Source: Proteromonas lacertae
Taxonomy: Eukaryota
Length of the DNA: 64,000 nucleotides
Assembly: GCA_002245135.1 (NCBI GenBank)
Contig: NGBS01000600.1
Location: 1 to 64,000 of the forward strand
Reading direction: 5' to 3'
Every line of letters begins with the position of its first letter. Positions within the stretch are counted from its first letter, which is position 1. Shown here piece by piece: positions 13,968-64,000 of this stretch. A program made the translations under genes and the position numbers. Under the pieces are notes generated by a model. It saw only the letters and a list, made by a program, of their open reading frames with translations, was not told the origin of the DNA and searched no databases.

Positions 13968-15745
13968 TTAATGAATTGGTGGAGTAGTATTACCAGCTTG
14001 ATGTTCTTCTTTAGGATTTATCTTAATCATATCATCAATTCTCAATATAGTAATAGCAGCTTCAGTAGCAAAACGAATACTCTTTACTTTAGAAATAGCT
14101 GGTTCTAAAACACCAGCTTTAAAGTTATTCACTATTTTACCTTCAATCAAATCTAATCCACAATATTTCAACTCTTCATTCTCTTTATTATTCTTACTCT
14201 GACATAAGTTGTGTTTAGCACATAATTTAGCTATTAATTCACTTGCATCTTTACCAGCATTTACTGCTAATGTCTTTGGAATTACTAATAAAGCTTCACT
14301 AAATTGTTGAATAGCCAATTGTTCTCTACTTCCAAGACTAGTTGCAAATCGATCTAAATACATAGATAAAGCAGCATCAACAGCACCACCACCCACAATC
14401 AAACTTTTACTTTCTAATACTCTTTTAATCACACATAATGAATCATGTAATGATCTTTCCATCTCGTTTAACATATATTCATTAGCACCACGTAATACAA
14501 TAGTTACTGCTTCGGTAGTCTTACATCCTTTAATGTATAAATATTCACCATCACCAACTCTTTGTTCACAGACTTCTGTAGCTGATCCTAAATTAGCAGG
14601 ATCGAATTTCTCATCACCTTCTAAGTCACTTAAAGTTGATAATATTGTTGCACCTGTAGCTTTGCTAATCATTTCCATCTTCTCTCTTGATAATCTTCGA
14701 ACAGCAATACATTTCGCTTCAACGAAGTATTTCATTGACATATCATCAATTCCTTTAGTTGTAAAAATGACATTTGTACCAGTAGATAATATCTTTTGAA
14801 TTCTTTCTTTGGTAATATCTTCTTCTCTTTCTTGAATGGCTTCTAATTGGTCTGGATTGTTTAATAATACTTCTACACCCATTTGCATTCTATGACGCTG
14901 TAAATCGAAATCTAATAAAGCGATCTTTGCATTATTTACAGCTTGTGGCATTTGCATTGAAGCTCTAGTTACATCTAAAGCAAAACCATTTACTAATTCA
15001 CTCTATAAATATTATAAACAATATAATTATACTTCGATTGCACTTTTTCCATGACATTTCAATATAAATGCATTATCAATTGGATAAACAGTTTTTCCAA
15101 AATCATCCACTCTCTTTAATTGTTTAACACAATCAACAACCATTTTACCGAAAAATTCACTTTCTGCACCAATAATCTTACTACTCATTGCTGTTTTTGC
15201 ACAACTTACTAAGACATTATCATCGATCTTTTCACTGGGGATTAATAAATTCTCTTTTATATATTTGACACATTCTTTCATTGCTAATTTATAACCACTA
15301 ATTATGCTTGTTGGATGAATCTTTTGTTTATATAACACATTGGCTCTTGCCATTAATTCAGCTGCTAATATAACAACAGAGGTAGTACCATCACCTACTT
15401 CTTTATCTTGTAAATCTGATAATTCGACTAAAACTTTAGCTGCTGGATGCTCTACGTTTAATAATTTTAATATAGTTGCTCCATCATTAGTTATTGTCAC
15501 ATCACCTATTTCATCGACCTATAGAGTTATAAACGACAATAATAACTGAGATTATACCAGCATCTTATCTAAACCTACTGGACCTAATGAACTTTTCACA
15601 ATGTTTGCAACTGCCATACATGCAGTGACTATATAAAATAAATTAGAATATTTAGTCAAAGGTATATATAATGCATAGATAATATACCATTTTGAGAACG
15701 TACATCTTCACCTTGAGTTCTTTCACCATTTAAAGTTAAAGACAT
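13968..15745 (-). CDS. CCT1: T-complex protein 1 subunit alpha (chaperonin CCT1)
   Basis: MSLTLNGERTQGEDVRSQN..AVANIVKSSLGPVGLDKML..TITNDGATIL..GDGTTSVV..KSIRFATEAAITILRIDD. Three short introns near 15003-15032, 15519-15557 and 15629-15688. Confidence 0.97.
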
Positions 15746-15835
15746 CTTCTTAGAATATAAAAAATTTAAAAATGATTTATTTTTATTTGAATGTTGCTTG
15801 ATAGGCTTGAGTCATTTTAAAAATCGCATTTACAC

Positions 15836-18800
15836 ATGTTAACTCAACTTAAAAACGCAATATTGCCAAATCAGTATGACAAGAGTAATACCTCACCTGT
15901 CAGTGTGATGAACGGACGAAATAATAAGGAAGAAGAGTTTTCAAGAAAGTTATTAACTATAAAGCAAATGAACACTGATATTAAAAAACCAGAAGTTTAT
16001 AGTACCATTTTAGAAAGTCGTTACATTACCTGTCAAGATCTTTTACTATATATTCAAGATATTCAAGTTACAAAAGATCAACTTGCTGAATTAATTAAAT
16101 TACTTCAAGAAATTGCAACTGAAATAAAATTGTCACCTCCAGATCACAATGTTATGATTGATGTAACAGGAAACATTTTGTTGTATTGCATAGCATCAGT
16201 ATTCTCCAATTACGTGAAAGTTGACAATTTAAACTCCTCCTCCTTTTTATACCCATTCATTAGAGATAATTCAACACATGAAGTCGAAAATATAACCCAA
16301 ATGATAGATAATTTTAATTTTGATATACCTCATTATAAGTCTGTAGTTAATTTCTTTTATATTTTACTACTGAAAGAGAGTAATGAAAGAGATGTGTATG
16401 AAGATTACAATTTTACAAATGAAAGATTTTCAAAAGTATATTTATTATATTTTTAATTTATTTATTATTCATTATAGTTATTATTAACCAAATCCTTCAG
16501 TTTTTTGCATTCTACACTTCAATACTGTCATTTCGATACTCAGAACTCTCAGACGTATGCAACACTGTTTATAGACGCTATGAGTTTATATTTCTACTTA
16601 ACAGACACAAATATTCCATTTTACTCACCAGATAGAGAAAATTCAGGTAATTCTGGTGAAAGTGATATATTAGAAGATGTGCTCTTATTTTTTGAAGGTA
16701 TTTTGACATTATATCCAAGCTTAAGCTTGTATTTTTGGCTTGATGAGACAAATCCACTGTCAAAGTCATTAAAAGTGTTCTTTGACTCAATAATAATGAA
16801 GAAAAATCCACCAGAAGATCTATTCTACCATTCTATTAGATTTATAAAGTGTTTAAGTAAAGAAAAACCATTTGAAATACACAATCAATTAATAAAAATA
16901 GATTCGTTTTATAATTACAATCACTTATTTGGTTATTTATACAATCTATATGATCAAGTCAAACATATCAATAATCAAAAAATAACCTCCAATAGTAATA
17001 ATAATATCATATTAAATGATATAATCATTAGTGAGATATTAGATTTAATCAGTGTATTATCAGATAATAACTTTGAAATATGTGAATATTTCTATTATAA
17101 AAATGAATATCATTTATTTGAAATATTATTGTCATACGTTTATTATGATGTTAGTCCAATTATAAAGGTATATATATATATATATTATATTATTATGTTT
17201 ATTTATATATATAGGGTAAAGCTTATCATACTCTTAGCATCCTATCAAAATTAAATCAATTCAACGTAATTATTACCGAACATATTTTAATTAATTCGTT
17301 ACTCAATACACCAACTACCAATAACAATGCATCTAATAATAATAATAATAATTACAATACTAATCTACAACAACAACAACAGAATTTATTATTTCAACAA
17401 CAACAACAACAGAAACAGCAACAAATGATGTTAATGATGATGAGACAACAACAACAACAACAACAAGATCCATCATCAGCTCAATTACAAATACAACAAT
17501 TTGACAGTGGAATAAAGTCAGAAATAGAATATGTCGAACCAAATAATAAAGAATATCCAATTACAATAGGTTTTATTGAATTGATCATTAATTTATGTAA
17601 ATACAATAGCAATAGTAAAGAAGGATTATTAAATCGAGTAGAATTTGATAATTATTTTAGTTTTATATTCAGTGATATATTCCTAAAGATTGATAAGAGA
17701 GAATTTAAGAATATCAATGAGAAATATGACTTATTGACAAAATGCTTAGAATTATTCAATATTATCATATCAAATTATGATAATTATTTAAAATATATCT
17801 CTCATAATAATAATAATAATAATAATGCTATTGATGAAAACAATAATTGCGTATTCAAACTATTAACGATAATATATCGTGGAGGAAGTTCATTCAATTA
17901 TATCAACAATTTACTCTCTAAATCACCTATTGAAATGCAACAATTACATTGTAATATCAATAATCAATGGAAGTTAGAAAATGATGGTTATAATAATGAA
18001 GAAGATATGATTATCGAATGCATTCATCTCTTCGATATTTTGATCAAAATCGAGAATCACTTCATTCAGTATATACATAAATATTATAGCTCCTATATAA
18101 TGAAACCAATATATCAAATGATCTTATTATCAAGTAGCAATATTAACTTATTAAATCATATATTACTCTCTTTTTCCTATCAATTCAGTCAGATTTATAA
18201 TCATTATTCTATTGATTTGTTGTATTATTTAATCAGTAATTGTTTATCAAGAGATATATTGAATAAAATAGTCATTAATAATATGATTGTTCCATTATTA
18301 GATTGCTACTGTAAATATTTCAATCAGTTTATGTATTTGAAGAAAGAGAATATTGAAAATATCTACAATCAAAGTGATAATTATTCTATATTGAAGAACA
18401 GTGAAGATATATTGAAAGTATTGATTACTCATTTAGAAAACAATAGAAATAGTCCATTTATATACTTATTATTCGGTATTAAAACCCATATACAATTTCA
18501 AATCACCAATCCCTTATGTTTAGTGGAAATATTAATTAATTTGATTAGTTCAAACCAAAGGCTTGAGGAATATTCAAACTTATGTGAATTGATTTGTCAT
18601 TTATTCACTATTCTTATCAGTGAATCTGAATAACAGTAGCAATAATATAGAAGAATACAATATAAATGACAATGACACTGAGATTTTATATTTATTTAGA
18701 AAAACATCAATTCTTTCAAATACATTAAAGAATGTGATAATTAATTATAATAATAATAATAATAACATTAACTTGGTAAAAAATTATAATTGTATAATCA

Positions 18801-20903
18801 GTTGGATATTGAAATCTATTGCAATTGATATTCAATTATCCAGTATTAGTAATCCTCCAATATATGATAACATATCGTCTATTTTAATGAATTTATTTGA
18901 TAATAATACAAACAGGAATCAAGCCAGTATGATCAATATTAATAGTAATAATAATAATTTGTTTTACTATTATTCAAGTAATGAGAATATGTTTTTATAT
19001 ATATTCAAAATCATTTTACAGGAAAATACATTTCCAGTAATCCCATCTTCACATCCAGTAAACGTTATTCTTCAAGATTTAGTGTCTAAAAATAATGGAA
19101 TTTTAGTGGAAGATGTATGTGAAGGAATAGAGTATCAGAAAATAGATATAAGACTACTAAATGAGATATTATATAACAATAATAATAATAATATTGACTT
19201 GTGTATTTTAGAAGAATTAAACAATTGGTGTTTGAATTGGAATAGATATAGTGAAATAGAATTCAGTAGAATTCTATTATTAGAAAGTTGGAATCAAGTC
19301 TTAGGTATTATTTTATTATGTAAAATCAATATATTCAAAATACCAGGAAGTATTTTCAAAGAAGGAAATGAAATATTTACTGTAACAAATATATTACAAT
19401 CTATTTTGCAAACTCTTTTATTAAGTTCAACTCAGAATATATCAAATGGTAGTTCTAATAATAACAATTTAGAAATAAATAATAATAATAATCATATCAA
19501 TAATAATGTCAATAATAATATATTAAATCTAAGGATAGAAATAAAGGAGAAATTAGCAGGAATGGTCATATTATTACTGTCAAAATTAAAGGAAAAAGAA
19601 ATACCCAATTCCAAGTATTTACCTTCATAAACTATTGAATCAAATATTTGAATCGATTTTAGACTGTTTATGTAAATCATTAACATGTTCAACCACTTCC
19701 TGTTATTATAGAATATTGTTATATATATCAATATTAAAGTATATACAATGGAATAATAAATGTGAATATAATGTGGAATTATTGAATAGAAAGTCTAAAG
19801 TATTAATTGATTGTTTATTAGAAGATATAATCTATTCAAATGATGAGTTCAAACCTATATGTTTGTATACACTGGAGAATATTTTACACTATGATATTAT
19901 TGGTAATTCCGTTGAGTATTTATCCAATCATATTAATTTCATCAAACTGTTGGATAAAATTCAAAATTTTGGTAATGAATGTTATGAAAATACAATTAAT
20001 GGAGAAAAACAAAGAAATATATTTGAAAGCTTGTTATTACTGTTAAACTGCATATCTGAAAATAATATAAATGGAGCAAATCTATTGGTTAATAATAATA
20101 TATTGAAATTAATTAGAAATAGTTCATTAATAAAGAATATAAATCCATATATGACATTACAAGGAAATAATAATAACAATTTCTATAGAATTATTCTCTC
20201 AATTTGTCATTTGATTAAATCCATTCTTTTTACATTAAAAGATAATGAAAATGTAAATAATGAGATATTATTATTATTTAACGAAAACTTTGCACTATTT
20301 CAAGAGTTATTGAAAGTAGAAAAAAATGAAAATTATAAATTATATTTGGAATTACAAAGTCTTATTATTGGATTATTGATATGTTTATTAGAAAGAAATG
20401 GTGAGAAATATGAAAAGAAATTAAGTCCTTATTGTAACTTATATACTCAACTGATATTGACATTATTAAGTCATTACAGCAGTAACAAATTGATATTTGA
20501 AAATGATGAAATTGACAATAATAATATCAATAATTCACAATTGAAAATATTGAAAAAGAAAATATTTACATACAGTTTGAATTATATATATTATGAAACG
20601 AAGTTAAAAGAGAATTCAGGAAGTGAAATCAACTTGTTTTCTAATTATTCTATTCTATCAACTATCTTATATAGTTGTATAATCAATTATATGAAGAGTA
20701 ATGAAAAGACAAAGTGTTATTTGAAAAGTATCATTGAAATGAGTTTATATATTTATATTAATCATATTCAGTATTGGAAAATGAATAAAATTGAAGTATT
20801 GGAGTTGAAAAGAGATATTAAGAAGTTATATGAATTGGAAGTATTAAGTAAAGAGAATGTATTGTTTGAAATATTGTTGAGAAGATTGAGTTATGAAATG
20901 TAG
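15836..20903 (+). CDS. Nucleoporin Nup205/Nup192-like large alpha-solenoid protein
   Basis: Long helical protein. GIKSEIEYVEPNNKEYPITIGFIELIINL resembles the Nup205 'E..E....EYP.T.AF..L' motif. Introns near 16436-16477 and 17168-17213. Apparent +1 frameshifts near 18630 and 19628. Confidence 0.6.
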
Positions 20904-21797: not shown

Positions 21798-23136
21798 TTA
21801 GAAGATTAAATTGAATATTAACAACACCAAAATCAGTATTTTTGTACAGTTTATCAAGTATTCATTACTACTGTTACAAACGCCACCATTTCTACTAAAC
21901 GTTATTATATCTCCAGGTGTATCACAATGTGGACAAGTATATCCCTCAAAACATTGACAAATTCCATTCAAACATTTACCTCCTGTTTTCTCTGGATTTT
22001 TATAGTTTGGACCAAAATTTCCACAATCTTTTGATTTCTTACAACTTCCACCACCATTCATTCGAACTATACTATTGCATTTATCTCCTTGACGATCACA
22101 ATAAGGACAAGTCCAACCATCATAACATTCACATTTATTCGTTTTATTATTACATATTCCACCATCATAATAACCACATTCACCACTGTTACTACAACTA
22201 CCTCCACCTGTTGGTAATTCATCACATTTTACACCACTATAACCTTTATTACATTTACATTTCATATTTTCTCTATCACATACTCCTTCTTTACAATCTA
22301 ATTCTGCACATAAATCAATATCACATTTCTTACCTCCATATCCACTTTTACAAACACATTTACCATTTTTACATTTACCATTCTTACAACTTATTCCATT
22401 ACAACTGCAACTATCTTTACCTTCTAATAAATTCTTTTTCAATTTATCACAATAACTACAACCAAATCCACTTTGACATTGACATTCATTATTTATACAT
22501 AAACCTTAAAATATAGATTAAATTAAACTAATAATATTATATAATATAAACAAATAAATAAAAATGATATATTATTACACTCTTTATGATCTTTACAACT
22601 TCCACCACCTATCAAATAATCACCACAAGAAGCACCATATAAGATATCTTCATTCTCACCTAAACTACAATCACTACAACCCCAGTTGGAGTAACAAACA
22701 CAATGACTATTTATACATAAACCATGACCACTACAATCACTATCTTCTACACATATACCTCCACCCCAGCGAACTTTACATAAATCAACTGTTTCATTTA
22801 AACCACTTCGTAATCTATATAAATCATCATATTAAACAATTAAAAATCAAACTTTCTTATTCCACTCAATTCACCTGATACATCAGGAATTAGTTGAACA
22901 AAACAACTTCCACAACCATAACCAGAACTGCATTTACATACTGAACCTTCACATCTTCCTGTTATACTTGAAGCATCTTCACGAAGAGTAGGTAAATCAG
23001 CTGAAGGAATTCCACATTCGATATCAGAAGTACCTTCTCATGTTATTATATCAAATATACAATATTCTCCTCCTGAAATTGCACAATATGTGAAATTAAT
23101 GAAGATAAGTGATAAAACCAATGGAAGAAATGACAT
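21798..23136 (-). CDS. Secreted/surface cysteine-rich EGF-like repeat protein with C-terminal hydrophobic (GPI-like) tail
   Basis: Signal peptide MSFLPLVLSLIFINFTYCA. Repeats of GGGxC..D.DC...G.C....C.C..GWxCPxC. Three introns (including a 27-nt one that removes an in-frame TGA near 23040). Ends ILILVLLIFNLIF. Confidence 0.8.
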
Positions 23137-23265: not shown

Positions 23266-26200
23266 TTATTTAATATTTAAGAATTCTTTTGATAATTCTT
23301 TCTTTTCTTCTTCTTTTAATCCATTCAACTAAATTTTACTAACTGAAGTAAATTCATTTAGAAATGATTTTAATTCTGATTTATCGATGTTTTCTTTCAC
23401 TGTTATTGACAATTCATTTAGACTATCAAACAATTTTTCATTTTCTTCTAATAATCTTAATTCTCTTTCATCTAATTCATTTCCTGATATATCTAAATCT
23501 AACAATGGTTCATAATCTTTTAATCTTTCTATTAACACTTTCAATCCTTTCTCACTCATTCCAATATCTATTTCAGTTATAATACAATTATATTCATAAA
23601 ATACTTGAAAGATTATTGATACTGTTTTCAGTAATCATTTCTACAAATCTATCCATAGCATTTACATATAATTTCTACTCCTTCATCACCAATTGGATTA
23701 TTGAATATTGATAGATATTTTACACTTTCTGGCAAACAATCCAGTAATTCTTTTAATCCTTTATAACTGATTCTATTATTTGGATAAATCAACACTGCTA
23801 ATAATTTACTTGTCTAATTAATCGAATATGAGAATCATTGATATTCATATCTATTTCATTAAAATTAAATAATATACTTGACAAATCATATTTATGATAA
23901 TACCTTTCTTTTAGCCTTTTAATACAATAATTTAAATAATAATCTATTTCTTCATCACTCCATGATAAACATTTCATTTTTATAAATGGATAGTTTTTGT
24001 TTTCTAATGATGTTGAACATATTGATTTTAATCCATTTATTCTGATATTATTTCCATTTAGATATATTTCATGACATCGTCCAATTGAATTTATTTTATT
24101 GGTTAATAATATTACACTTTCATCATCTATTGAGATATTACTCAAATTCATTTTATTGCCATATATTAACATTCTTAAATTGTTTAACAATAGTTTAAAT
24201 CCAGTATTACCAATTGGATTATCTATTTAATTATAATTATATAACATTATAATATATACTATGAATTAACAATTTCTCAATATTATCATTATTTTTCACA
24301 TAATTCATCAAATACTCTATTCCATCTGAATCTATATTATTGTTACTTATATCAAGTATGATTTTTTCATGAATATTCATCAAACCAGACAATATGTATT
24401 TCAGTCCAGTAGAAGATAAACCCATTTCTATTATATAATAAATAAAAATAATAATACTTGAACAATTTATTCTATTGTAACAATCTTTTAATAACCATAT
24501 ATGTGGAAATAAGATATTCATTCCTTCATCTCCTATCTCATTTCCATTTATTTGAAGTTCCTTAAGATTTGAAAATGATGATAAATTCGTTTCTATACTT
24601 TTGTATGTTAGGTTATTATCTAAACAATAAAAAATTATCAGATTATACTACTCAAATCTAATACTTCTATCTCTCTCAATTCATTTAATCTTAATGAAAT
24701 GAATAATTTGAAAATACTGTCATCAATACCTAAATTACTTAAATTTAGCACATTATCATTTTTGAAGTATTGTATTAATGTTGGAATGTCTTTGTCAATC
24801 AACATATCTTCTTTACATTTAATATCAATATGATTTTTGAAATAGAATATAGGAATAAGCTTTTAATCCTTCTGCATGAATATTATTGTTGCATGTAATA
24901 TCTAGCTTCTTAAGATTTGGATATTTATATAATTCTTCTGATAATAATATCATACATATATCATTTAAACACATTCCCCTAAGATTCAATTCATTTTCTT
25001 TGTTGATTAATAAATGTAGATGTGGAACTAATAATTTGAACCTTCTTGGACACATTCCATCTACTATATCAATATAATAATATAATATATAATACATGGA
25101 AGATTTATATGTTTTAATTTCATAAGAGGAATTGATTTTATAAATGATTCGATGAAATCAGAACTAGCACTACAACCAAATAAATACAATTCTTTTAGAT
25201 TTGATAATTCAATAAAATATGATAAGAATAATGATTGATGTTGATTTGGAATAGTCATACCTAAGTTAATATAAATGATCATAATAATACCAAATTGGAG
25301 TTTTGCTAAATTCATTAATTTCAAGATTCGGAACAAATAGTTTATTCCTTTCTCACACAAACAAACACAATTTGATTCTATGATAAATACTTCATCATTA
25401 TGTATATTACTATCGATATTAAATATCATTCTATCTAAATAACAGTCATTTTCTCCTTTACATTGGTGACGAATTTGAGATTTCAGTCTATCTTTTATTG
25501 AATCATCTTCTTTGAATACTTTCATCATCAATAATACTGCTAATATTCTCTCATTTGGTTTACTGTTGTAAGATTCTATCAAACTATCTCGAATATTTTC
25601 ATTCTTGTTATATTCCACATAATAGTCTCTCTGAATATCAAATGGAGTTATTTCTATTGAATAATCATTATTGAATATGATTTCTTTTCTCTCATCACAT
25701 CCCATTACACTATTCTTTGACGCTTGTAACATCTTATTCGCTTTCATCATTTCTTTTCTCAACTCTTTCAAACTCAATCTATCTTCACTCTTCACTTTCA
25801 ACATTCTATCTATCATTTCCTTCATATCATCATCACATTCTACATCTAAACTGTATTTACATCTCAGGATATTATTCATTGTTTTATAAATATTATTATC
25901 TTCATTAAATGGTAATTTCTTACAAATCATTTCATATAATATACATCCAATTGACCAAATCACACTTTTATCATTACATTCTAAACCATTCAACTCTTCT
26001 GGACTTTTAAAACACACATCATATATTCTCATATCATCTTCCTTTCTCAACGTATTTAAGTATAAATCACAGATCTTTGCATTGTTATTCTCTTCATATA
26101 TTATGTTACTACTCTTCAAATTGCTAATCACAATGTTATAATCACATAATACATCAAAAATATCACATATTGAACATATCACATTACTTATATCAGTATT

Positions 26201-26527
26201 TGAAATGGATTTATTGTGAATTATCTCTTCTAAATCCAATAAATAGTATTTTCTTCTTAATAACATCATATTATTACCGATTATTTCACAAGCAGATGGA
26301 TAGATGAAGGATAAACAACTATCAATCAAGAATGAGTTATTCTCTAAGAATTCTTTTATTCTAGCTTCTTTAACATTTTCTAAATTTAATATCTTAATAC
26401 TTTTTACATTATTCTGATGCTCTATTACTAAATCCACTTCTTTCTCGCCTTTTTCTACACTTTCTTTTATCTATTATGTATAAATCAATTAACATACTTC
26501 TACTGCATATGATAATAACGAATTCAT
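23266..26527 (-). CDS. Pseudokinase + RI-type leucine-rich repeat protein (possibly disrupted)
   Basis: Kinase fold with SNLKSSNI, CDL and KSPEE in place of HRDLK, DFG and APE. Followed by LRR exons (LDISNNNIDSDG, LDISGNELD). Apparent +1 shifts near 24862, 23800 and 23780, and an in-frame TAG at 23329. Confidence 0.75.
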
Positions 26528-26653: not shown

Positions 26654-27334
26654 TTAAAAATCATCAGTTACATTATACTTCAAAGCTTCTGGTGGTTTTA
26701 GTTTTATACTGATAGGATCAATCTTACCAGAATGAATTTTAGTTGATAAAGATGTTACTTTTATACTGTAGTTTGATTCATGTTTGTTAAATCTCTTTGT
26801 TGGAGTATCAAAATTCAAACTTGGAATTGTATTTGAAGTATTTGGATTTAAGATACTTTTACTAATTCGACTATTACTTCGATTTCTTACAACAGAGGAT
26901 TGAGATTTTTCTTGAGTTGTCCAAAATGAATAATTACTAATCAATGAAGATCTACATAAATCACGAATGGATGGGAAATAATCAAATAATAAATAAAATA
27001 ATGGATGAACAACTAATCTCATATATTCTAATTGACTATGTGCAAACTATATAAAAATTATTATTATAATAATTTATTTATACTGTTTTTATATCAGATA
27101 TATCCATTAAATCACCATTCATTTCACAATTTGGAACACTATTTCTTTTCAAATCTTCTTCTGTCATTTCTGTTTCAGTTATTGAATTAAACCAAGTTTT
27201 ATAGATTGGAAATGGTTTGACTGGATTGTTGAGAATGGAGGTTTTGAATATTAATAATAATATTTCAATTTTATTCTCTTCACTGTCATACATTGGCTTT
27301 TTATTTGGGAAATAGTCACTATTAATTATAGTTT

Positions 27335-27371
<37 letters not shown>

Positions 27372-30300
27372 TTAAATTTACTAATAAAATCACTGTGATT
27401 ATGTAAACAACTTCCTAACACCAACTTATAAGTCAATTCATTAATAAATTCTTTATCTTCATCATTGAAAAATGATAAAATACTTTTACCATTGATCTCA
27501 TCATGTAAGATGGATAAATTGACTATTTCTTGATGTTCTTTATCACGATAATCCAAAAGATTATCTCGAGCATTTCTTAAAGCTCTATATAAGTATGAAG
27601 GATGAACAATATCTTTTACTAAAGCAGATAAATATAAAGCAAATCTATTTAATAATATTAAATAATTATATATATATATATATATACATTTCTTTGGGTT
27701 TATAAACACTATACAATTGAGAATTGATTAATAAACAATTGATTGTTTGAATCACATCAGCTACTCTTAAATCCATGTTAAACTGAGATGATTTTATCAA
27801 TTTATCATCCACATAATCTAAAAATGAATTGAAATAATCTAATGGAATTGCAACTAATTCTAATAAATTGTTCTTTTGTAATATACTCAAAGTAACAAAT
27901 TTTAATAATTCATTGTTACTTTCACATTTCTTCATTGTTTCTACTTTATTAACTCGGTTTAACTCAGGTAATTCATTCATAATTATTCCACTTTCTTTAT
28001 TTGCGGCTTTTGCATTATTTTCATCATTAGAGATTATATTACTAGCTGAATAAACATCAAAATCCCAGTCATTAATTTTACTGTATAAATATCGAATTTC
28101 AGTTGATGGACTATTATATCCAATTGATTGTAATAAATATAAATCATTGTTATGAATTATATTATTGAATTGAGCTATTACAGATAATGAGTAATAATTC
28201 ATTTTTGAATTTCTTTTTGCAGGATTAGATGGATTATTTGCAGCATTATTACCATTTGTTGATGTATTGGAAGTGCTTGGAGGTAAATTAGTAAAAAATA
28301 CATTTCCACATCCACCACCAGCAGCACCTACTCTAGGAGATAATGGTTTATCTTTAAATCCACGAGGACTAACAGGTACAGAACTACAACTTTGGAAATT
28401 TGATGAAATTGTTATGTCTTCGAAAAACAATGGTTTATCTTCTTCACTTAATTCATTAAAAGTGTTTATGAAATTATCATTTAAATCATTTCCATAGATG
28501 TTTATAGTATCATCAATTTCACTAATTCCACCATTTTCTTCATTATTATTATTTGGATTACTGTTATTAGTTGAAATCACGAGTTATACTGTTTGGTTGA
28601 ACTGAAGATGGATGAAAACAACAAAATAGTTTTTGATACCATTTCAAATTCGAACTACTTCTTCTTCTTCTTTTATTCATTTCTTCTATTTCTTTTTCTT
28701 GAGGTGATAATGGTTGTTTAGAAGATGGAACACAACAACAACAACAACTAACACAACAACAAGGACAACATCCACAGTAATTACAACTTGAAATATTATT
28801 ATTATCATTATTAATAAAAGATGGAGATAAAGAAATGTTGTTATTCGCAGTATTTGGTAAAGGAATAGTCGAACTAGCTTGAATCTGAGCAGTTGATGGA
28901 TTATTGGATATTGGATTAAGCGATTGATTTTGGCTTGAAGAGACTTGACTTGTGGATGTATTACTGTTTATATTGGGAGTATTACTGTTCGCATTTCCAT
29001 TAATTTCCAGTGGAATTACACCAGGATCAGAAAATCTGACAATATTAATAGCTAATATATTTCGATTACTGTTATTTACACGATTATTATTACTTCGATA
29101 GGGAACTACATTGATATTATTCATGTTGATTGTGCTGTTGGTATTATTATTATTATTATTATTAGTGGATATATTTGATGTAAAATTACAATTATTATTA
29201 TTTCCTTCAAAGAATTGTTGATTTTGTACTTTATGAAGTGGAGATTGGTTTATTGTATTACTACCAGTTGATACACAATTCTGCATTTTGGAGGGAGTTA
29301 AAGGAATTGGATTAAATGCAGTTATTATTGGAGCTGATGGTCTCTATATATTATAAATAATAAATAAATGAATAAATATACAGCCATTCGAACTGAAGCA
29401 GTTGAATGAAAACTTTTGTTTATATTTATAGCTGAAGGTCTAGCTGACATATGTTTCATTAAAGTTGATCCTAATAATTTACATCGTACTTTATTCGCGA
29501 TATTTACATCTTCACATTGTAATAAATGACGATAATAATGAATTGAATAAACAGTGCGATAATATTCATTACAAAACCCATCTAAATTTGATAATTGTTG
29601 AAAAAAATAATCAGCTACACTTTTATGAATTCTTTTTCTTTGTTCAAACAACACTCGTTGATAGATAATATCTCGAATCACAATGGCTGTGAATTTATAA
29701 CATCTTCCTTGTAATGGTTTGATATTATCACTTACATTATATGTGTGAGGACATTCCATTTCTATTTCATGAGGTATTGATGGTTCTACTAAATTGAAAT
29801 ACTGCAAAGTGTTCATATAATCCATAAAGTAATTTGCATAATTACTATCACTACTTTTCTATTAATAAAAAGATAAAAAAAAGTAAATAATATATAATAT
29901 AAAAGTAAATACTTTTGGAAATATTGTTGCAACTAATGCTAATTCAAATGTTCCACTTAAACAACCACCTGTGAAACTAACTACAGCTGCTGTTTTTAAT
30001 AATAAGAATTCCATTGGTTTTAATTTATCTAAATAAGTACTAATTCCACGAGTTATTTTATAGGGAACAACGAAATTATAAGGAACATCATGCTGGATTC
30101 TTTGATCATTGAATTTTAATACATTCTTATTACATTCTTTTACTACTTGAATCCATTTATTATTCAATAATGTACGTATAAAACGACTAACATATAATGG
30201 ATTTCCACCAGTGAATTGATTTACTAATACTTTTATACTTTCAGCAACTACTTTTACATCTAATGTCTTTTGAATTAATACATTTACATCATCACTTTTT

Positions 30301-32532
30301 AGTGGATATAATTCAATTAATTTACTGTAAGTAGATTGCAATAAATTAAAGTAATATTGAGAAACAGCTGTAAATATTGGTGTATATCGATTATTATGCA
30401 ATGGCCTACAACTAATGATAGTCAAAATTGGTTTAACTCTCAAAAATGGAGATGTTGTTATATTATATAAGATTTTCCAATCAATTTCATTCATATATTG
30501 TCCTTGGTCAATTATGATTATTAATGGTTTAGTTCGTTTATACAATATTCTATCTAATAATGAGATTTCTTTTTCATCTTTCATTATATCTTCATTTACA
30601 TCAATTGGAGTAATTGGTAAAAATAAATTATGCTTCTTTATTTCATCTTTATATTCTTTCTTTTCATCCTCATCTTCTACTAATTCTATTATTTTATGTA
30701 TTAATTGGTTATAAATATAGCATCGAGTATTCATTGAATAAGTATCACCTATTGCATCTACTAAATCATAATTATTATTTATTATAAAAGACTCTAGTTC
30801 AATACATGTTAAATCACTCTTCTCATATTTTTTATTCAAAGCATTTGCTATGGTTTGAATCATTAAAGACTTTCCTGTTCCTGTATCTCCTGTTACTATT
30901 AAAGTACAAGATTCAGGGATTGGCTCGACCAATTTATATAATTGTCTTTTTATTTCACTGATTAACATCTTCATAGGAGCTGTTAAGATTATTTTGTTAT
31001 TTTCGATTTCATTATTCAAAGTGAAACTTCTTTCTATACTTTTATCTGGATAATAGGTGTAAAATACTTCAACAGCTTCACTTTTACCTTTTAAATTGAT
31101 TGGTTCATTCGCTTTGAATTTTAATTGATAATAACTATCAGCACTATTCTTTGTTGTTTTGTCAATTAATATATTTGGACAAATACTTTTATCTCGACAT
31201 TTACATGCTAATTTTTGAGCATTTTGCATCAATCTTGCTGCTGTATTTACCACATCTCCTAACACTCCATATTCTTTACGACTACCAGCTCCTAAACATC
31301 CACAATGAGCTATACCTGTTGTAATACCAACATAAGGACGATATCCTAACGATTCTAATCGATTTACTAAGGTTAATGCTGATAAAACTGCTCTTGTTGG
31401 ATCATCTTCATGAGCTAATGGAGGTAAACCAAATACAGCTAAGAGTGTACTACCTTTATCATCCACTAGGAATTTATTTAGACTACCTTCATAGTCATAT
31501 AATGAAGCTTGAACTGCTACTAATACATCTTGAACTTGTTTTAATTGCATATCTTTAATTTCGATTAATTTACTGGCTTTTAAACCGACATTTACAAATA
31601 AAATTGTCATTGTTCGAACCTCTGCTGCCCAATAAGCAGCATCTTTCTGCATGTATGGTATAACAGCTGCTGCTACAAATTTTTGCATATCTGACAAAAT
31701 CTCTTCATGTTTTTCTCTTTTCAATGATATTAATCTAATCTGTTGAGTTGAGTTTATTATTTTTACACATCCTAATGGTAATGTCGTCCCTTTCATACAA
31801 TCACTCAAATAATGCCAAGAATCAAGAGACACAACGACATCTCCTGGACCGCCTATAATAATACACATAAATAATTAATTTATATGATATATATACACTG
31901 CTCTTCACAATCAAATGCTGCTAATAAAGCAGGACCACATAATAAATATTCTAATCTGCCTAACACACCACCAACATACAATACATACGATTTACCACAT
32001 CCTATTCCACATTTAACTCGGAAAACAACACCTTCGCCAATTTTGTAGTTATGTAACTCTTTTTGTATATCTAATGCACATTGTACAGCTCTGTGAAGAG
32101 TTGTTTTCAAATCCCATTCTTCTACTGTTTCTGAACTCCACTATTAAGAGATATATATTTGAAATATACGACTATCACAACAGCATCACCTACATATTTA
32201 AATACATCACCTCCTGACTTTGTTGTTATCCTCACCAGCGATTCCCAATAACTGTTTAAATATATACTTATATCCTCTGCCCCACGAGCTCCTCTGCTAG
32301 CTACTTTTTCACTGAGATTTGTGTAACCACTTATATCGGCTAATGATGAATAAATATTAAATCATACCAAACATAACAACAGAGTCACACTTTTTAAATG
32401 ATGGAACTTTCACTTCATCCCCTGACTTTTTCGATTTTGCAAGTTGTCTAATAACACATTCTATACAACATCAGAAAATGATGTAATAATACCAGGCACG
32501 AAATCTTCATAACGAGCTAACTTCGCTTCCAT
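26654..32532 (-). CDS. ADCY10/soluble-type adenylyl cyclase (2 cyclase domains) + STAND NTPase + Cys/Asn-rich linker + degenerate class I PDE domain
   Basis: C1 has FADISGYT and KYVGDA; C2 has KFLVDDKG and GDVVNTAARLM; Walker A is GDTGTGKS. The C-terminal part has INDWDFDV, VADVIQT, LSALVKDIVHP and NNPVKPF..W. Several ~30-nt introns and one +1 shift near 28580. Confidence 0.8.
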
Positions 32533-32889: not shown

Positions 32890-34233
32890 ATGGATTCTAA
32901 ACGATATCTACTAGATACAGTGTCAACAAATTTAGCTAAGCTCTGTTTTTGTATGTTTATTTGAATAATATGGTTAGTGTATAAAAAAGATGTAGAAGAT
33001 ATACAGAATGTGTTTAACGCTTTTACAGAGTATAGATAATGTTACTATATTTGTTAGCGGAATAGATCAAACAATGTATAAATCTCAGTTTCTACAGTGG
33101 GTCAAAATACAGTCTCCTTTATTAATTCAAGTCCTTTCTTGTTATGGTATTTTGTATTATTTTGATACCTAATAGAATACATTATGTGGAACGATTTTTT
33201 TCAAATAATTATAATATTTTGTGCTTCTCCTTCAGAACTGATAATAAAACGTATAAAATATCATTTATATATAGACCTTATACAAAACTGTGGAAATGCT
33301 GTTGATTTACAAAGAATAAAAATGACAGATATAGAAGAGTTAGTTAAACTCACTTGTGGTAATGTTAAATTAATGGAATGTTGGAATAGTTATGCAATAG
33401 AACTTATTCCAAATGCTGCTGGATATTATACATCTGATCAAATCATCTTATTTCTCTCAAAACATAAACACTTTATACAAGACTTATATTTACTGCAACG
33501 TCATTTATGCGAAATTACTATAGGCAAAGAAAAATGGAAAGTTATAAAATTAAGAAGAATCGAGCAATTCAAACAGTGGAAAATTGAAGCAAAACATCAA
33601 AACCAACAAGAATCTGCTGTTGTTTCTAATACATCTTCTTCTACTGCTACTATATATCCTTTAGGCAAAACATCACCAAATGTTTCGCCAACTCATGCTG
33701 AAGAAGAAAATAATAATAAACAAAAAGAGAGACGTTCTTTCTTTAGTTTTTTTACTGGTTTATTTAGACGAGAAAAGAAGAAAAAAGAATTAAGTGATTA
33801 TAAGATAGAAAATGAGGAATATCAGGAAGTATTAGATTCTATCCTTCACTTTTTCTTTCTTCGTTACCATCCTATTAATACAGATGATATACCAGCAGAA
33901 GCTCCAAGGATTAAAGAATTGAAGAAAATTGGAAGTACCTATACTCTTCCTGGTGTTAGATTAGAAAGACCTTCATTAGATACAATTAATTTTAAAGATG
34001 AAGACTTCAATGTGGTTGATCCTATACCAGAAGCTGAAAGAGTTAGTTATACTGGTAGTATTAAAAGCCCTCTGAATAAGTTGAGAAGTTCTCCTCTTAG
34101 GAAAGAGATTAGAACTGTACAACCGAGAGAGATAGCTGTAAGTGGTAGATCTGAACAATTTGCTGGTTCGGCTAAATCCAAAAGAGGAACTGAAGTGAAT
34201 ATTAATGTTCCTGGTGAGGTTATAGATGCTTGA
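32890..34233 (+). CDS. Hypothetical multi-exon protein
   Basis: ATG at 32890, several short introns, then a long terminal exon in the 349-aa ORF. No recognised motif. Confidence 0.55.
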
Positions 34234-34436: not shown

Positions 34437-35451
34437 ATGAATGCAAACGAAAAAAAACTACAAGAGAAATTCAAAAGAATTTTAAGAGATCTTTTAAAAC
34501 AGGAAGGGAATAGATATTGTGCTGATTGCCTAGCAAAATGTATTTCATCATTTTTATGATTAAATTAATAGCACCGCAATGGGCATCTTCCAATTTAGGT
34601 GTATTTATTTGCATCAGATGTTCAGGATTACATCGTAAACTAGGAGTTCATATTTCTTTTGTTCGTTCTGTCAATCTGGACTCATGGACTGCTAAAGAAG
34701 TAAAAATCATGCAAAGATGGGGTAATGCTAAAGCCAATAGTTACTGGGAAAGAAAAATGCCAGAAAATTTCCCACGACCAACTGAAAACAGTACAATGGA
34801 AGAAGCAGAAGCGTTTATAAGATTAAAATATGAACAGCAACAATTCGTAGATCCATCATTTGATCCTAATCTTCAACCAATAGCAACTCCAACATTAACT
34901 CCAGTTTCAACACCTCGAGAAACAGAAGAAGAAGAAGAAAGTTATAATAATAAACATAGTAGTCACCACTCTCACAGTAATAGTAGTAGGTATCATAGCC
35001 ACAGTCATCATCATTCTCACAGTTCAAAAAAAGAAGATGGTTTAGAAGGATTCTTGAATGATGATAAAAGTAAGACGGATGGAGATGATTTGAATGATGG
35101 AATAGAGAAAGTGGTTGAAAAATTGGATGATTTTCATTTGAATAATGAAAGTATTGAATTTTTATTGTTTTATTCTATTTAGTGTTGATGAATGCAAAGC
35201 CTAAAGAAGTGATCAAACCAACGCCGGCAGTAGATCCGTTAAACGTTTATTTAGCACCACAACCTTCAAAGCAACAAGTCAAAAAAATGGAGCAAGCACA
35301 GAAGACTAATATGATGATGATGGGAATGATGGGAGGTAACAATAACGGGATGATGGGAATGGGTATGGGTATGGGTATGATGAATATGGGAAACATGTCA
35401 ATGAATATGAATAGAGGTAATAGAAACACATTTGGAGGGGGTATGATGTAA
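34437..35451 (+). CDS. ArfGAP (SMAP/AGD5-like) with Met/Gly-rich tail
   Basis: GNRYCADC..(intron)..PQWASSNLGVFICIRCSGLHRKLGVHISFVRSVNLDSW contains the CxxC-x16-CxxC-x4-R motif. Confidence 0.93.
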
Positions 35452-35622: not shown

Positions 35623-38600
35623 ATGACAAATATAGGAATAGATTTAGGTTCTTATTATTATTTAGCATCTAAGCGCGAAGAGACTGGTAATGTTGAGGTT
35701 TTATCAAACAAACTAGACAAACGATTATCATTGTATAAGCTCAAAGTATAATGAATAGGACATTTTTTGCTTATTCAAAAAACAAAAAATACCATCAAGG
35801 AAAGAGTTTAGTATTATTTCCACTATATATCGCTTAGATTTCTGAAGATGTGAACAATGCTATTGTTAATGGTAAAGACTTCTTTGCAAGAAAATATAAT
35901 GATGAAGAATTTAAAATTCTACTAGAAAACTACTATCCGTACAAATTATTAAAAGATGAGGATAATCTACCTTATTTTGAAGTATTATGTATTATAATAT
36001 ACATTTATAGGTTAAGTTTAAAAATGAAAATATAAAATATACTTATAAGGATATTTACAATGCATATTTCAATGAAATTGAAGAAACAATCGCATATAAG
36101 AAATTAGAAGGTGAAAATATATCAAATCAGAAATGGATAATCAGCTATCCGCCATATTATACATCAATTCAAAGAAAAGCTTTAAAAACTTTATGTAATT
36201 TTAGACATTGTAATGATATCATAAAATGCAAAGATATCGTGAGTGAAACAGTAGCGTATGCATTATGTTATGGGTATGAAAACAATGTAAAATATGCAGA
36301 TAAATCAGAAGTACTGCTTTTAGTTGATATTGGATATTCTTGTGCAAGTGTAACATGTGTTAAATATGAGAATGTATAAATCTTATTTATATATTATTTT
36401 ATAGAATAAATGTACTATATTAGGTAATGCATATAATAGGGAAATATGCGGTAGAAATATAGACAAATTGATAGTTGATTATGTAAAAAAAGATATACAA
36501 GAAAGTGATGTATTTAAAGATAGTTATGAAACTATAAGTGTAGATAGAATATGTAATTTAAAAATCTTACAGACAATGATTTCTGTGAAAGAAGTATTGT
36601 CTATTGAAAATAGTTATAGTGTTTTTATTTACCATCTTTACAATGATAAAGACTATGAATCAACATTCAGTAGAGATGATTTTAATTCTGTTTTGAAGAA
36701 TAACAAATATGATGAAAGAATTGAATCATTATTGGATGAATGTGTGAAAAAGTGCAATATTAAAGCAAATGATATAGATGGTATTGTAATTGCAGGTGGA
36801 ACATGTAGAATTTCATTTATTCAAAATACCTTATTAAAATATATGAACAAAAAGATGGAAAAGACATGTACATTAGATAAATCAATTAATATGGAAGAGC
36901 ACATAGCATACGGTTGTAGTTATTATGGATTATTAATGAATGATATATGGAAATATGAATTAATAAATAACGATGAAGATGAGTTATTATTATCAAGTTA
37001 CAATGACATTACAAAGAAAAGAATAATAAAAATGGATAATTATTTGTCTAGATTTCTTTCTGGTTTCAGTGACACTAATATTGAAGAGAATGATAAAGAA
37101 CTAATATATGAATATTTTAAAGATGAAATTAAAATAATTGAATCAATGATTGAAAAGACTAATGATGGTTTAGACGATGAGAAAGAAATGGAAGAAGCCA
37201 ATAAGGTGAAAAATGATATGGAAAGAGATATATTTGCATTGCATCATGATTTATCTCTAATACAGAATAAGATGTTGATTGAAAATGAGAATAACTATCT
37301 ATGGAAAATAATGGAAGACTTACACAATGATAATAATATAAATTCGCTAAATTCAATAAAAGAATATGAGAATAATTTCTATCAAGAATGGGAAGAAAAG
37401 AAAAAGACGAAATTTCATTTAGCTATTCTGTTATGGTATATATATTTAGATATTTGGATATATTATATATATAGTAAACTATCAATTGTTGTGTATCCTA
37501 AACAAAAAGAAGAATATGAAAAGCAAATACTTGAATTGAATAAAGTAGATACTAAGAAGCTTCTAATGTCAAAGTGTATTACCATATGTAGTGTATATTT
37601 TATTAACATTATCTAATAAATAGAGTATAACAAATAAACAAAATGAGATTATAAATAAATTAAGAATTATAATGTATATATGTTTATCTAAAATTTATTA
37701 GTAATGATTACATTTTGGTATTAATATCATCACCTAGAAATTTTGCAGAATCAAGTAAAAAGTATATTTATAAATTAAAAGAAATGATGAAACTAATAAA
37801 TGTTGAACCATCATTAGACAATCTAAACATGTTTTACTCACAGTCTTATATAATGACACAAATGATTGAAAAATATAAAACTGCTATAATAAAATCATTG
37901 TATATTATGTTGTTTATATAAATGTAATAGAAATGAGAAATATGAAAAATGTGAATTTTTTGGAAATATTATTGTTGATTTTTCGGAAGTATTAGAGAGT
38001 ATTGAAGCGTTGAGAAATTATGTAAATGATGATAAGATTGAAAAATCTTCAGATAATTTAAAATATCTCTTTAATGAATTTATAGTATGAATAACTGTGA
38101 TAGTATCCTTAAATAGAAAGTAAACGATAGTTACCAATCAAAGAAGAATGATGTAATTTATAAGTTAGAAGAAAAAAAGTATAGTCATTATATTTCATAA
38201 ATTATAGACAATCAATTCTAAATGAAATAGCTCAAATAACTTTAGATATGCCTAAAGAGATAGAAGTGTTGAAACGTAAGGTTGAGTGTATACAAACAAA
38301 AGAAACTATTGATCTAGCAGAGTGTAAAAAGAATTACATTCAATTAAGTGGTTGTTACTCAGATACAATAGAATCAATTGATAATGAAATAATTGTATTG
38401 TTGTATGAATATAAAATAATAATAGGAGAAAAAGAAAGTACTGATTAGTGAATTAGAAAATTGCATGATAAAGGAAATAAAAGAATCTTATTTAGATGCT
38501 ATTAAAGTGATAGAAAGTAAATCCAATGTAATAGATTCATATAATAATATTAAAGTATATTATATAGTTAAACTAATAAAATTAATAGCTATTAAATGAC

Positions 38601-40865: not shown

Positions 40866-42635
40866 TTAATGTGGTGGTGGTGGTTGATATTGATATTGTG
40901 GTTGATAAGGAGTATATTGACCAGGTGGTGGTAATGACTGTTGTTGTTGTGGTTGTTGTTGATAATATTGAGTTTGTTGTTGTTGAAGTGGTGGTGGTTG
41001 TTGTGGATAACATCCTCCTGGATATTGTTGTTGCATTGGTGGAGGTTGAATAAACTGTGGCTGTTGAGGTTGAATAAATTGAGGTTGTTGTTGAATAAAT
41101 TGAGGTTGTTGAGGTTGAACAAATTGTGGTTGAACAAATTGTGGTTGTTGTGGAGGTTGTTGTTGCATTGGATTAATAAAGCTACCATAAGTATTAGGCG
41201 GTTGTAAATTAGTTGGTTGATAACCACCAGTTGGTGGTGGTTGAGAATGCATCATTGGAGCTGCAGTTGTACCACCACTTCCTCCTGTTGGAGGAGATGA
41301 TGGTGGAGGTGTATTATCAACAAATACAAATGTACCAGCTACAATCCTTACTGTTGGTAAGACTAATGGAGTATCTGCTTTAATTGGTTGTTTATCTAAT
41401 TTCAATGGTTGATCAACCACTGGCCAGGATGTCAATTGACCTTCAGCTTGTTTTCTAGATTCATTCAATAAGACTTCCAATTGAGATAAATAATTAGGGA
41501 AAGCTTTACCAATCTCTGATGAGATATCACCTTTTAACTTTTGTTTTAATTCCTATTATTAATAAATAATAATTTATAAATATATATACATAAGCAGCAT
41601 TTGAGTATTTGTATAAATAATTGAATGAAGATTCACTACTTAACAAATCAAATAATACATCATTATTATCAGCAGCAAAATTAGCAATATCACCTTCATT
41701 TGCTGGATATTTCAACTCAATATCAAATGCCATATATAAATTCGCATGTAATTCCAATGTTTGATTAACACAATCAATAAATGCACAAATATTCTTATAA
41801 TTTTGAATTTACTAAATTTTTCTTTTGAATGACATAATTCATCAATTGCAGTGATATAAAACTTGGCTGAATTTCTTCGACTATCGTCTGCATTTTTTCT
41901 TCCCATCATTTCTCCAACTAATACGAATTGAAGGCCTCTAATCAATTGTACAAACTATATAAATAAAATTCAATTAAGATTATACAGCATCTAGAAAATC
42001 ATTTCCTATATCTTCACATTTTGATATTTCTTTTTGATCAACGTAATTATTGTAGGATTTACATAATGTAATACACTCTTTTGCGATTTTGTAGTATTTT
42101 ATTTTGTCTTGTATGTCTTGTATCATATACGGTATATAGACACATTTTTCTGTTCCTTCAAGACAATAACTGCATAGGAATATAGCATAATGAACTAACA
42201 TGTTACAAATTTCAAAATTTGGATTGTAAGACTTGTTTGTTGAGGTAGTAACAGCTGATACCCACTCAAATTTAATAGCTTCCTAGTTTTATATAGTCAA
42301 TATATGATACTTTGTCTTTGATAGCAAAATTTTCATTCATTTGCTTAACTCTTGTCACATATCTTCCAATAATATCAGCAGATTTGTCGTATTCAGATGC
42401 ACCTTTCATACAACCGAACTTCTTTGTAGTTTTGTCATAAGCAAAAAGATTTAACAAAAACCTACGATCTATATCTAGCTGTTGACATGTTTTCAACCAT
42501 CCATCCAGATCCTAAAATTATAATTGCATAACAATATACAGGAAGCTTTTGTTTCTTAATTAAGGGGTAAACATTTTTTTCATAGATGTTATCCTTATTA
42601 GAACTGCTCTTACCTTGTAATAAGTGTTGATACAT
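40866..42635 (-). CDS. BRO1-domain-like protein with Pro/Gln-rich tail
   Basis: Multi-exon helical region containing NPNFEICNMLVHYA (compare the BRO1 FE...VLFN.A pattern), followed by QPQF/PPP repeats. Confidence 0.4.
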
Positions 42636-49904: not shown

Positions 49905-50059
49905 AAAAGAGAAAAATAATGAAATGAGGCTTGAGTATTATTTGCCAATTTTTCATTTAATTTTGAAATAACCAAAAAAAGACCAAAAATTTACAAATCT
50001 GGGCTTGACACCAACGTATCTAGATTTTTAAATTTAGTCATTAGAAACATTTATAAATC

Positions 50060-58400: not shown

Positions 58401-58445
58401 TATTTATTTTTCTTTTTCTTTTTCTTTTTCTTTTTCTTTTTCTTT

Positions 58446-58477
<32 letters not shown>

Positions 58478-63957: not shown

Positions 63958-64000
63958 ATAAGATATTGTTTATTATTGTATTTTTTCTTAAGAAATTTTA

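What the first reader, a model, noticed from the sequence alone, without database searches (positions are those of the whole stretch)
26654..32532. Adenylyl cyclase-STAND NTPase fused to a catalytically dead phosphodiesterase
Seen: an ADCY10-like cyclase with intact catalytic motifs and a Walker A leads, through a low-complexity linker, into a class I PDE-like fold. Its metal ligands are replaced: YHNxxHAADV becomes FNMDLRVADV, HDxDH becomes KDIVH, ENHH becomes EIVN, LATD becomes LGSC and ADISN becomes SILNN. The nucleotide-recognising Gln may be retained (SQLEY). The join needs one +1 correction near 28580, but there is no intergenic gap or nearby ATG for a separate gene. Known: plant CAPE is an AC-PDE fusion with the opposite domain order. 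Inference: the pseudo-PDE could be a cAMP-sensing feedback or dimerisation module that replaces the usual STAND sensor repeats.
Basis: partly seen in the sequence, partly recalled or inferred. Interest (0 to 1): 0.75.

Follow-up and report, generated by a model that had tools for sequence, protein, structure and literature searches.

The report
Adenylyl cyclase carrying a disarmed phosphodiesterase
This protist gene likely encodes one protein with a cAMP-making enzyme and a cAMP-destroying domain that has lost its metal site but kept its nucleotide pocket, whereas its closest relative keeps both working parts, so the dead domain probably now serves as a regulator rather than an eraser of the signal.

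Summary
The minus-strand gene (32532-26654, nine canonical short introns) encodes an sAC-like cyclase with D47, D99, K334, N412 and R416 equivalents present, a STAND NTPase, a low-complexity linker and a class I PDE domain. The PDE has lost the catalytic His and three of four zinc ligands but keeps most purine-pocket residues.

The fusion is inherited: 28 relatives carry cyclase/STAND plus an intact-looking PDE. The closest relative (P0154) runs STAND-linker-PDE in one ORF with all ligands intact. Three other relatives have a degenerate PDE; these losses are not one clade, and all four put Arg or Lys at the first zinc-ligand His.

The window's PDE evolves about twice as fast as its orthologue but has no stop codon, so it looks retained rather than decaying. 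The frame break at 28586-28569 fits no normal intron; 3-4 similar breaks in other genes point to assembly indels. No reads were available to settle this.

cAMP binding and feedback are inferred only. I found no paper on this family or on dead class I PDEs. Verdict: new variant of a known kind.

The parts
26654..32532 (-). Whole gene; about 1,840 codons if the single frame break is an assembly indel
   Evidence: exon model; collinear match to P0154
31897..32532 (-). Exons 1-4: cyclase C1 half with D47, K95 and D99 equivalents; R176 position is Phe
31080..31852 (-). Cyclase C2 half: K334, N412, R416 equivalents kept; T405 position is Gly
29523..30980 (-). STAND NTPase with Walker A GDTGTGKS (30890), Walker B IIIIDQ (30521), GGNP (30209) and helical/winged-helix tail; spans intron 29912-29859
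28140..29500 (-). Asn/Ser-rich linker; spans intron 29381-29344 and the frame break
   Evidence: (no Pfam family)
28730..28790 (-). Cys-rich tract (CNYCGCCPCCCVSCCCCCVP), candidate lipidation site; not noticed in the relatives inspected
   Evidence: sequence; function inferred
28595..28645 (-). Conserved linker motif WYQKLFCCF (Mucochytrium LLRKLFCCF, P0154 FSRLFSCF, P0002 LARIFCC); candidate palmitoylated membrane anchor
   Evidence: function inferred
28567..28586 (-). Frame break: one base too many relative to a continuous frame; no intron of this genome's type bridges it
26906..28139 (-). Class I PDE-like domain over four exons: H160>N, H164>R, H200>K, D318>I, H233 lost, E339>T; D201, H204, L319, N321, P322, Y329, W332, I336, Q369 kept; Y159>F, F372>Y (PDE4D numbering recalled)
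26654..26905 (-). Ser-rich C-terminal tail to the stop codon
32461..32492 (-). Intron, 32 nt
32340..32367 (-). Intron, 28 nt
32141..32169 (-). Intron, 29 nt
31853..31896 (-). Intron, 44 nt
29859..29912 (-). Intron, 54 nt
29344..29381 (-). Intron, 38 nt
27645..27687 (-). Intron in PDE domain, 43 nt, (TA)n-rich
27319..27371 (-). Intron in PDE domain, 53 nt, (TA)n-rich
27047..27083 (-). Intron in PDE domain, 37 nt

Best explanation
The locus likely encodes one ~1,840-residue protein in which a predicted active sAC-type adenylyl cyclase and a STAND switch are joined to an inherited phosphodiesterase domain that has lost its metal site, kept its purine pocket, and probably acts as a non-catalytic regulator that would bind cAMP instead of destroying it. 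Shown: domain order, cyclase catalytic residues, loss of PDE ligands, orthology to an intact-PDE protein, an open frame through the whole PDE. Inferred: that the break at 28586-28569 is a residual assembly indel (about 75-80%); that the linker Cys motif tethers the protein to a membrane; that the ancestral protein makes and clears a local cAMP pool; and that this lineage's version makes cAMP without clearing it, while the dead domain holds product (Arg/Lys where the zinc sat could contact the phosphate) and feeds back on, buffers or scaffolds the cyclase (cAMP binding itself about 35%).
For: Fusion: P0154, the top hit of 1.84 billion representatives, is a single 1,210-aa ORF with STAND, the Cys linker motif and a PDE with all ligands; it matches the window at 37% over STAND and 31% (gaps included) over the PDE, and is sister to the window in the PDE tree with catalytic columns removed (99 SH-aLRT). 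Of 291 stored proteins, 33 hit a PDE profile: 28 intact at the five core positions, 3 degenerate, 2 fragments. Break as artefact: none of 7 candidate introns fits 36 reference introns (acceptor score below all 36; GC 0.23-0.31 against 0.125+-0.05); both flanks have in-frame codon bias (0.46, 0.45); the 364 nt after the stop are stop-free, reached by 2 of 20,000 shuffles; 3 clear and 1 ambiguous intron-less frame switches occur in other genes of the window. Retention: no stop in 590 codons after the break; about 14 expected in the PDE if its excess divergence were neutral. Pocket asymmetry: L319, N321, P322, Y329, W332, I336, Q369 kept, Y159 and F372 conservatively changed, while H160, H164, H200, D318, E339 are lost. 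Recurrence: the four dead PDEs are not one clade (p-AU 0.0034 for window+P0001; 6e-68 for all four) and each has Arg or Lys at H164.
Against: No reads or transcript were available, so the join is not shown. The PDE branch is about 1.9 times longer than its orthologue's while the STAND branches are equal (1.18 vs 0.62; 0.69 vs 0.65), and the excess is significant for only 3 of 9 outgroups: constraint is relaxed, which also fits a vestige. Only 13 of 29 near-invariant PDE columns are kept; F340 and M337 of the pocket are also changed. No close relative with the same dead PDE was found. The cyclase has Gly at the adenine-selecting T405 position, so ATP specificity is not certain. P0160 and P0214 are unnamed predicted ORFs whose motifs were partly read by eye.
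Confidence: 0.55

Rival explanations
1. One protein, but the dead PDE is a vestige: it stays folded and in frame only because truncation or misfolding would harm the cyclase, and it binds nothing.
For: PDE rate about doubled relative to the orthologue while STAND is not; 16 of 29 near-invariant columns changed; a ~35-residue insertion and a 4-residue deletion in the domain.
Against: Losses cluster on metal and catalytic residues while the purine pocket is largely kept; four separate lineages converge on Arg/Lys at the same His; a C-terminal vestige could be shed by one nonsense change, yet none is fixed in 590 codons.
Confidence: 0.2
2. The frameshift is a real, recent mutation: this strain makes cyclase-STAND-linker (1,246 aa) ending at 28567 and the PDE half has just been cut off.
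For: The stop is in the sequence and no normal intron removes it; relatives lacking any PDE exist (P0003, P0005); a dead domain is the part most easily lost.
Against: The 3' part shows no further lesion and keeps three canonical introns; similar single-base breaks sit in unrelated genes of the window. It would not change the conclusion that the PDE was dead while still fused.
Confidence: 0.13
3. Two genes: a cyclase-STAND gene and a stand-alone pseudo-PDE starting at ATG 28202.
For: An in-frame ATG lies just before the PDE domain.
Against: The 364 nt in between are stop-free in the PDE frame, 30% GC against 19-24% in flanking intergenic DNA, with coding codon bias; the orthologue is a single ORF.
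Confidence: 0.07
4. An unusual intron bridges the break (52 nt GTATAA..AAG, or 79 nt GTATCA..CAG), possibly as alternative splicing that yields forms with and without the dead PDE.
For: In-frame GT-AG pairs exist; GTATAA at 28589 is a common donor in this window (6 of 36).
Against: All candidates score below every reference acceptor and are too GC-rich; the 79-nt intron would delete the conserved KLFCCF motif; donor-like hexamers are common in exons (19 in 5,442 nt). The fused product would be the same as in the best explanation.
Confidence: 0.05

Closest known systems
Mammalian full-length soluble adenylyl cyclase (ADCY10, sACfl)
   Same: Tandem C1-C2 cyclase with D47, K95, D99, K334, N412, R416 equivalents (PDB 4CLF alignments) followed by a STAND/P-loop domain (PMC12802110, passages).
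   Different: C-terminus is a linker plus PDE-like domain; T405 position is Gly; R176 position is Phe, so bicarbonate activation (role of R176 recalled) is not expected.
Unstudied protist cyclase-STAND-(PH)-PDE family (Plasmodiophora brassicae CEO99499.1, Mucochytrium quahogii EP00516_P000336, unnamed P0154, P0002, P0007)
   Same: Same domain order; the window belongs to the PH-less subclade with the Cys linker motif and retained Gln.
   Different: 28 of 31 full PDE domains keep the catalytic His and zinc ligands; the window has lost them.
CAPE of streptophytes, and CAPE-like AC+PDE proteins of Saprolegniales
   Same: Class III cyclase and class I PDE in one chain (PMC8115329, passages).
   Different: CAPE is PDE-transmembrane-AC, and MpCAPE-PDE has shown activity; the window has AC first, a STAND domain, no membrane helices reported by Pfam, and a dead PDE.
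Class I PDE catalytic domain (human PDE4D; Toxoplasma PDE8/9)
   Same: Fold and purine pocket: Gln, aromatic clamp residue, Asn, Trp.
   Different: Only 2 of the 6 catalytic-centre residues listed for TgPDE8 (His, His, His, Asp, His, Asp; PMC7720076, passages) are kept.
Degenerate bacterial EAL / HD-GYP domains used as c-di-GMP receptors
   Different: Different messenger, different family, bacteria; binding has not been shown for the window's domain.

Membership tests
sAC-like class III adenylyl cyclase (ADCY10 type) | Tandem C1-C2 domains, no membrane anchor helices before them | tested here: met
   best PDB hits are ADCY10 for C1 and C2 exons
sAC-like class III adenylyl cyclase (ADCY10 type) | Metal Asp pair (D47, D99) and transition-state Asn/Arg (N412, R416) | tested here: met
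sAC-like class III adenylyl cyclase (ADCY10 type) | Adenine-selecting Lys and Thr/Asp (K334, T405) | tested here: inconclusive
   Lys kept, Thr replaced by Gly, as in P0003/P0005/P0156
sAC-like class III adenylyl cyclase (ADCY10 type) | Bicarbonate site K95 + R176 (role recalled) | tested here: not met
   K95 kept, R176 position is Phe
STAND NTPase, AC clade | Walker A, Walker B, GxP motif and helical/winged-helix tail after the cyclase | tested here: met
   GDTGTGKS, IIIIDQ, GGNP aligned across relatives; AAA_16 just below its cut-off
STAND NTPase, AC clade | C-terminal TPR/superstructure sensor repeats | tested here: not met
   no Pfam family on the downstream ORFs except PDEase_I and one chance hit
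Class I cyclic-nucleotide PDE (PDEase_I) | Sequence/fold homology | tested here: met
   partial model's top Foldseek hits are PDE4 (TM 0.51, rmsd 2.9, E 1.2, weak and alignment-guided)
Class I cyclic-nucleotide PDE (PDEase_I) | Catalytic His and zinc ligands His, His, Asp, Asp | tested here: not met
   N, R, K, D, I
Class I cyclic-nucleotide PDE (PDEase_I) | Invariant Gln and aromatic clamp | tested here: met
   Q and Y at Q369/F372, I at I336
Class I cyclic-nucleotide PDE (PDEase_I) | Hydrolysis of cAMP/cGMP | not testable with these tools
   needs assay; predicted absent
CAPE | N-terminal PDE, central transmembrane helices, C-terminal AC | tested here: not met
   opposite order with STAND in between (PMC8115329 passages)
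Protist cyclase-STAND-PDE fusion family | All three domains in one reading frame | tested here: inconclusive
   one frame break in the window; continuous in orthologue P0154 from STAND to PDE

The most novel reading that the evidence does not exclude
Class I cAMP phosphodiesterase domains have been converted repeatedly, within one protist cyclase family, into metal-free cAMP receptors in which Arg/Lys replaces the zinc, giving a cyclase its own product sensor: a eukaryotic cAMP-binding module distinct from CNB and GAF domains.
Probability: 0.3. Interest if true: 0.82.

Novelty: new variant of a known kind. Interest (0 to 1): 0.57.

Why it matters
Cyclase-PDE fusions are rare and the sAC-STAND-PDE type was not found in my paper searches. 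This family offers a natural series with both halves intact, PDE dead (four cases) or cyclase apparently dead (two cases), which makes it directly testable what a PDE domain does for a cyclase beyond hydrolysis. It also bears on the unknown role of the STAND part of soluble adenylyl cyclase (no full-length-specific regulator was found for the mammalian enzyme, PMC12802110 passages). If the dead domain binds cAMP it would be a new kind of eukaryotic cAMP receptor.

Tried and rejected
Sequencing runs: none was listed, so no reads were laid. No whole genome is held. The metagenome contig scan found 116 pattern matches and none was a relative. A homologue search with the first PDE exon scored none of 29 candidates. 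Predicted STAND-PDE complex of orthologue P0154: no verdict. Polyadenylation-made stop codon of the Blastocystis type: no TGTTTGTT on the minus strand near the break and a DNA stop is present; rejected. Programmed frameshift at stops: the codons before the five stops differ (AAC, GAA, TCA, TAT, AGT); rejected. A paralogue could not resolve a neighbouring frame break. The bacterial promoter scan is uninformative for a eukaryote. The idea that LGSC/LASC marks a shared dead-PDE clade with P0001 was rejected. The window's lineage was not determined.
Full report
Gene structure. The window is an AT-rich eukaryotic sequence (GC mostly 20-32% per kb) with short introns: 36 reference introns are 26-54 nt, median 33, all starting GTAT, 35 ending TAG. 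On the minus strand an ATG at 32532, nine such introns and a stop ending at 26654 give one reading frame except at a single point. The upstream frame stops at 28569-28567 and the downstream frame opens after 28586-28584, so one base too many lies in about 18 nt.

Cyclase and STAND. C1 and C2 exons match human ADCY10 best in the PDB. D47, K95, D99, K334, N412 and R416 equivalents are present; T405 is Gly and R176 is Phe. The roles of these residues are recalled from sAC structural work; the numbering was checked on the PDB alignments. Catalysis is therefore predicted, adenine selectivity is less certain and bicarbonate activation is not expected. Walker A, Walker B, GGNP and the helical tail align with relatives. 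No TPR family was found downstream.

PDE-like domain. Pfam PDEase_I hits two consecutive exons weakly but collinearly. In scripts, the spliced region scores 72.8 bits on a profile of 14 intact relatives versus at most 2.8 for shuffles. A model of the first PDE exon (pLDDT 76) has PDE4 domains as top Foldseek hits, though at E about 1 and guided by PDE homologues. In PDE4D numbering (numbers and pocket assignments recalled; PDE4D sequence seen) the window has H160N, H164R, H200K, D318I, E339T and no H233, but keeps D201 and H204. That is 2 of the 6 catalytic-centre residues listed for Toxoplasma PDE8 (PMC7720076, passages). The purine side is largely intact: L319, N321, P322, Y329, W332, I336, Q369, with Y159F and F372Y; M337 and F340 are changed. 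The Asp of LATD is S, N or A in intact-looking members of the same subclade, so its loss is a family trait.

The fusion is inherited. A search with the cyclase-STAND ORF among longer proteins returned 196 hits, 120 listed, of which 15 carry PDEase_I, including ranks 1, 2, 7 and 8; the PDE is C-terminal in all 15. The search of 1.84 billion representatives added more. Named members are Plasmodiophora brassicae CEO99499.1 (with PH domain) and Mucochytrium quahogii (without). The top hit P0154 is an unnamed 1,210-aa single ORF that starts at the end of C2 and continues through STAND, linker and a PDE with every ligand present. It matches the window at 37% over 596 columns of STAND and 31% over 418 columns of PDE, with 55% in the last PDE exon, and is the window's sister in a PDE tree without catalytic columns. 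A Cys motif in the linker (window WYQKLFCCF, just before the break) has counterparts in 10 of 12 PH-less relatives by a loose pattern, and by eye in P0001; the other subclade mostly has PH domains there. Both would serve membrane targeting (inference).

The break. Six in-frame GT-AG pairs exist, but all seven candidates scored have acceptors below all 36 reference introns and GC of 0.23-0.31 against 0.125; the 79-nt one would also delete the conserved Cys motif. Both flanks are coding-like in frame, and the 364 nt up to the next in-frame ATG are stop-free (2 of 20,000 shuffles). Of 42 ORF junctions surveyed, three others (18593-18633, 24827-24862, 41714-41808) and possibly a fourth (19590-19630) also switch frame without a normal intron. 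A residual assembly indel is the simplest reading; a real recent mutation cannot be excluded because no reads were available.

Retained or decaying. STAND branches of window and P0154 are equal (0.69, 0.65); the PDE branch is longer in the window (1.18, 0.62), significantly so against 3 of 9 outgroups. Only 13 of 29 near-invariant columns are kept. Constraint is relaxed. Yet there is no stop in 590 codons after the break, where about 14 would be expected in the PDE alone if the excess change were neutral (rough estimate), and three introns remain canonical. The domain was translated while it lost its active site.

Recurrence. Among 291 stored proteins, 33 hit the PDE profile: 28 intact at the five core positions (two are near-duplicates), 2 fragments, and 3 degenerate (P0001, P0160, P0214). 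The window, P0160 and P0214 each have an intact-PDE nearest neighbour, and trees reject a common origin (quick trees, long branches). All four have Arg or Lys at the first zinc-ligand His (P0160 read by eye), and two also at the second. Two other members (P0179, P0210) show the mirror case, lacking cyclase catalytic residues with the PDE intact. His-to-Arg is a one-step change, so convergence alone does not prove function.

Mechanism. The ancestral protein would make cAMP and clear it locally, tethered by PH or Cys motif, with the STAND domain as a switch (inference). In this lineage clearing is lost. The kept purine pocket and basic residues in the empty metal site suggest the domain can still seat cAMP or AMP and so damp, buffer or scaffold the cyclase. 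I put this regulatory reading at 0.55, with ligand binding itself near 0.35; vestige 0.2; real truncation 0.13; two genes 0.07; odd intron 0.05.

What is known. CAPE is PDE-membrane-AC, and CAPE-like AC+PDE proteins occur in Saprolegniales (PMC8115329, passages; PMC5159850 and PMC11032487 seen as search listings only). Mammalian sACfl has a predicted STAND domain with no known specific regulator (PMC12802110, passages). Searches that found no description of a sAC-STAND-PDE fusion or a dead class I PDE: 59 papers, 20 listed, none evidently on it; 0; 9 papers, on bacterial cyclic dinucleotides or PDE6; 0. The library lacks most subscription papers and I read no supplements, so absence from print is not established. 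PMC5447177 and PMC6660944 (passages) added nothing. Blastocystis is reported to lack nucleotide cyclases (PMC12129017, PMC13466520, passages); the window's lineage is not established, so this is only a reason to place it.

Verdict. A real and well-supported pseudo-phosphodiesterase variant of an unstudied protist cyclase-STAND-PDE family; fusion likely but not shown at one base; function of the dead domain inferred. New variant of a known kind; interest 0.57.

Noticed in passing
window 18593-18633 (+), 19590-19630 (+), 24827-24862 (-), 41714-41808 (-): Coding frames switch without a normal intron in three other genes; probably residual single-base assembly errors.
   Followed up: partly
proteins P0179 and P0210: Family members that lack the cyclase metal Asp pair and the Asn/Arg pair but keep an intact-looking PDE: the mirror image of the window's gene.
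   Followed up: partly
proteins P0008, P0011-P0014, P0016, P0020, P0022-P0025, P0034, P0176, P0178, P0206: The PH-type subclade keeps all PDE metal ligands but has Ser, Thr or Ala at the 'invariant' Gln.
   Followed up: no
proteins P0223, P0277-P0279: Unnamed 129-136 aa fragments about 60-64% identical to the window's STAND region: closer relatives whose PDE state is unknown.
   Followed up: partly
window 2584-12969 (-): A 3,461-codon ORF with internal ~1.1 kb DNA repeats (85-96% identical) and EGF-like domains; probably a large surface protein.
   Followed up: no
window 52500-64000 (+) and 23300-26470 (-): Cluster of duplicated protein-kinase genes (53459-55303 vs 59045-60889 at 95%), and an inverted paralogue pair of a kinase gene with LRR-like repeats (23503-24745 vs 61250-62481 at 74%) directly downstream of the cyclase gene.
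   Followed up: no
window 50057-52057 (+): Intron-less gene with a ~390-residue Pro/Gly/Arg-rich N-terminus (local GC 52%) followed by many EF-hands.
   Followed up: no
window 13968-15518, 34526-35451, 36011-37616, 44438-45013, 48427-49430: Ordinary neighbours: TCP-1 chaperonin, ArfGAP, Hsp70-like, GPR180/TMEM145-like and WD40 genes.
   Followed up: no
window 33166-34233 (+) and 15821-20903 (+): Two genes with no Pfam family; the first is divergent from the cyclase gene across about 650 nt.
   Followed up: no
window 22505-22578 (-): A 74-nt, 92% AT intron candidate with an AAG acceptor in an EGF-repeat gene, the only such acceptor seen.
   Followed up: no
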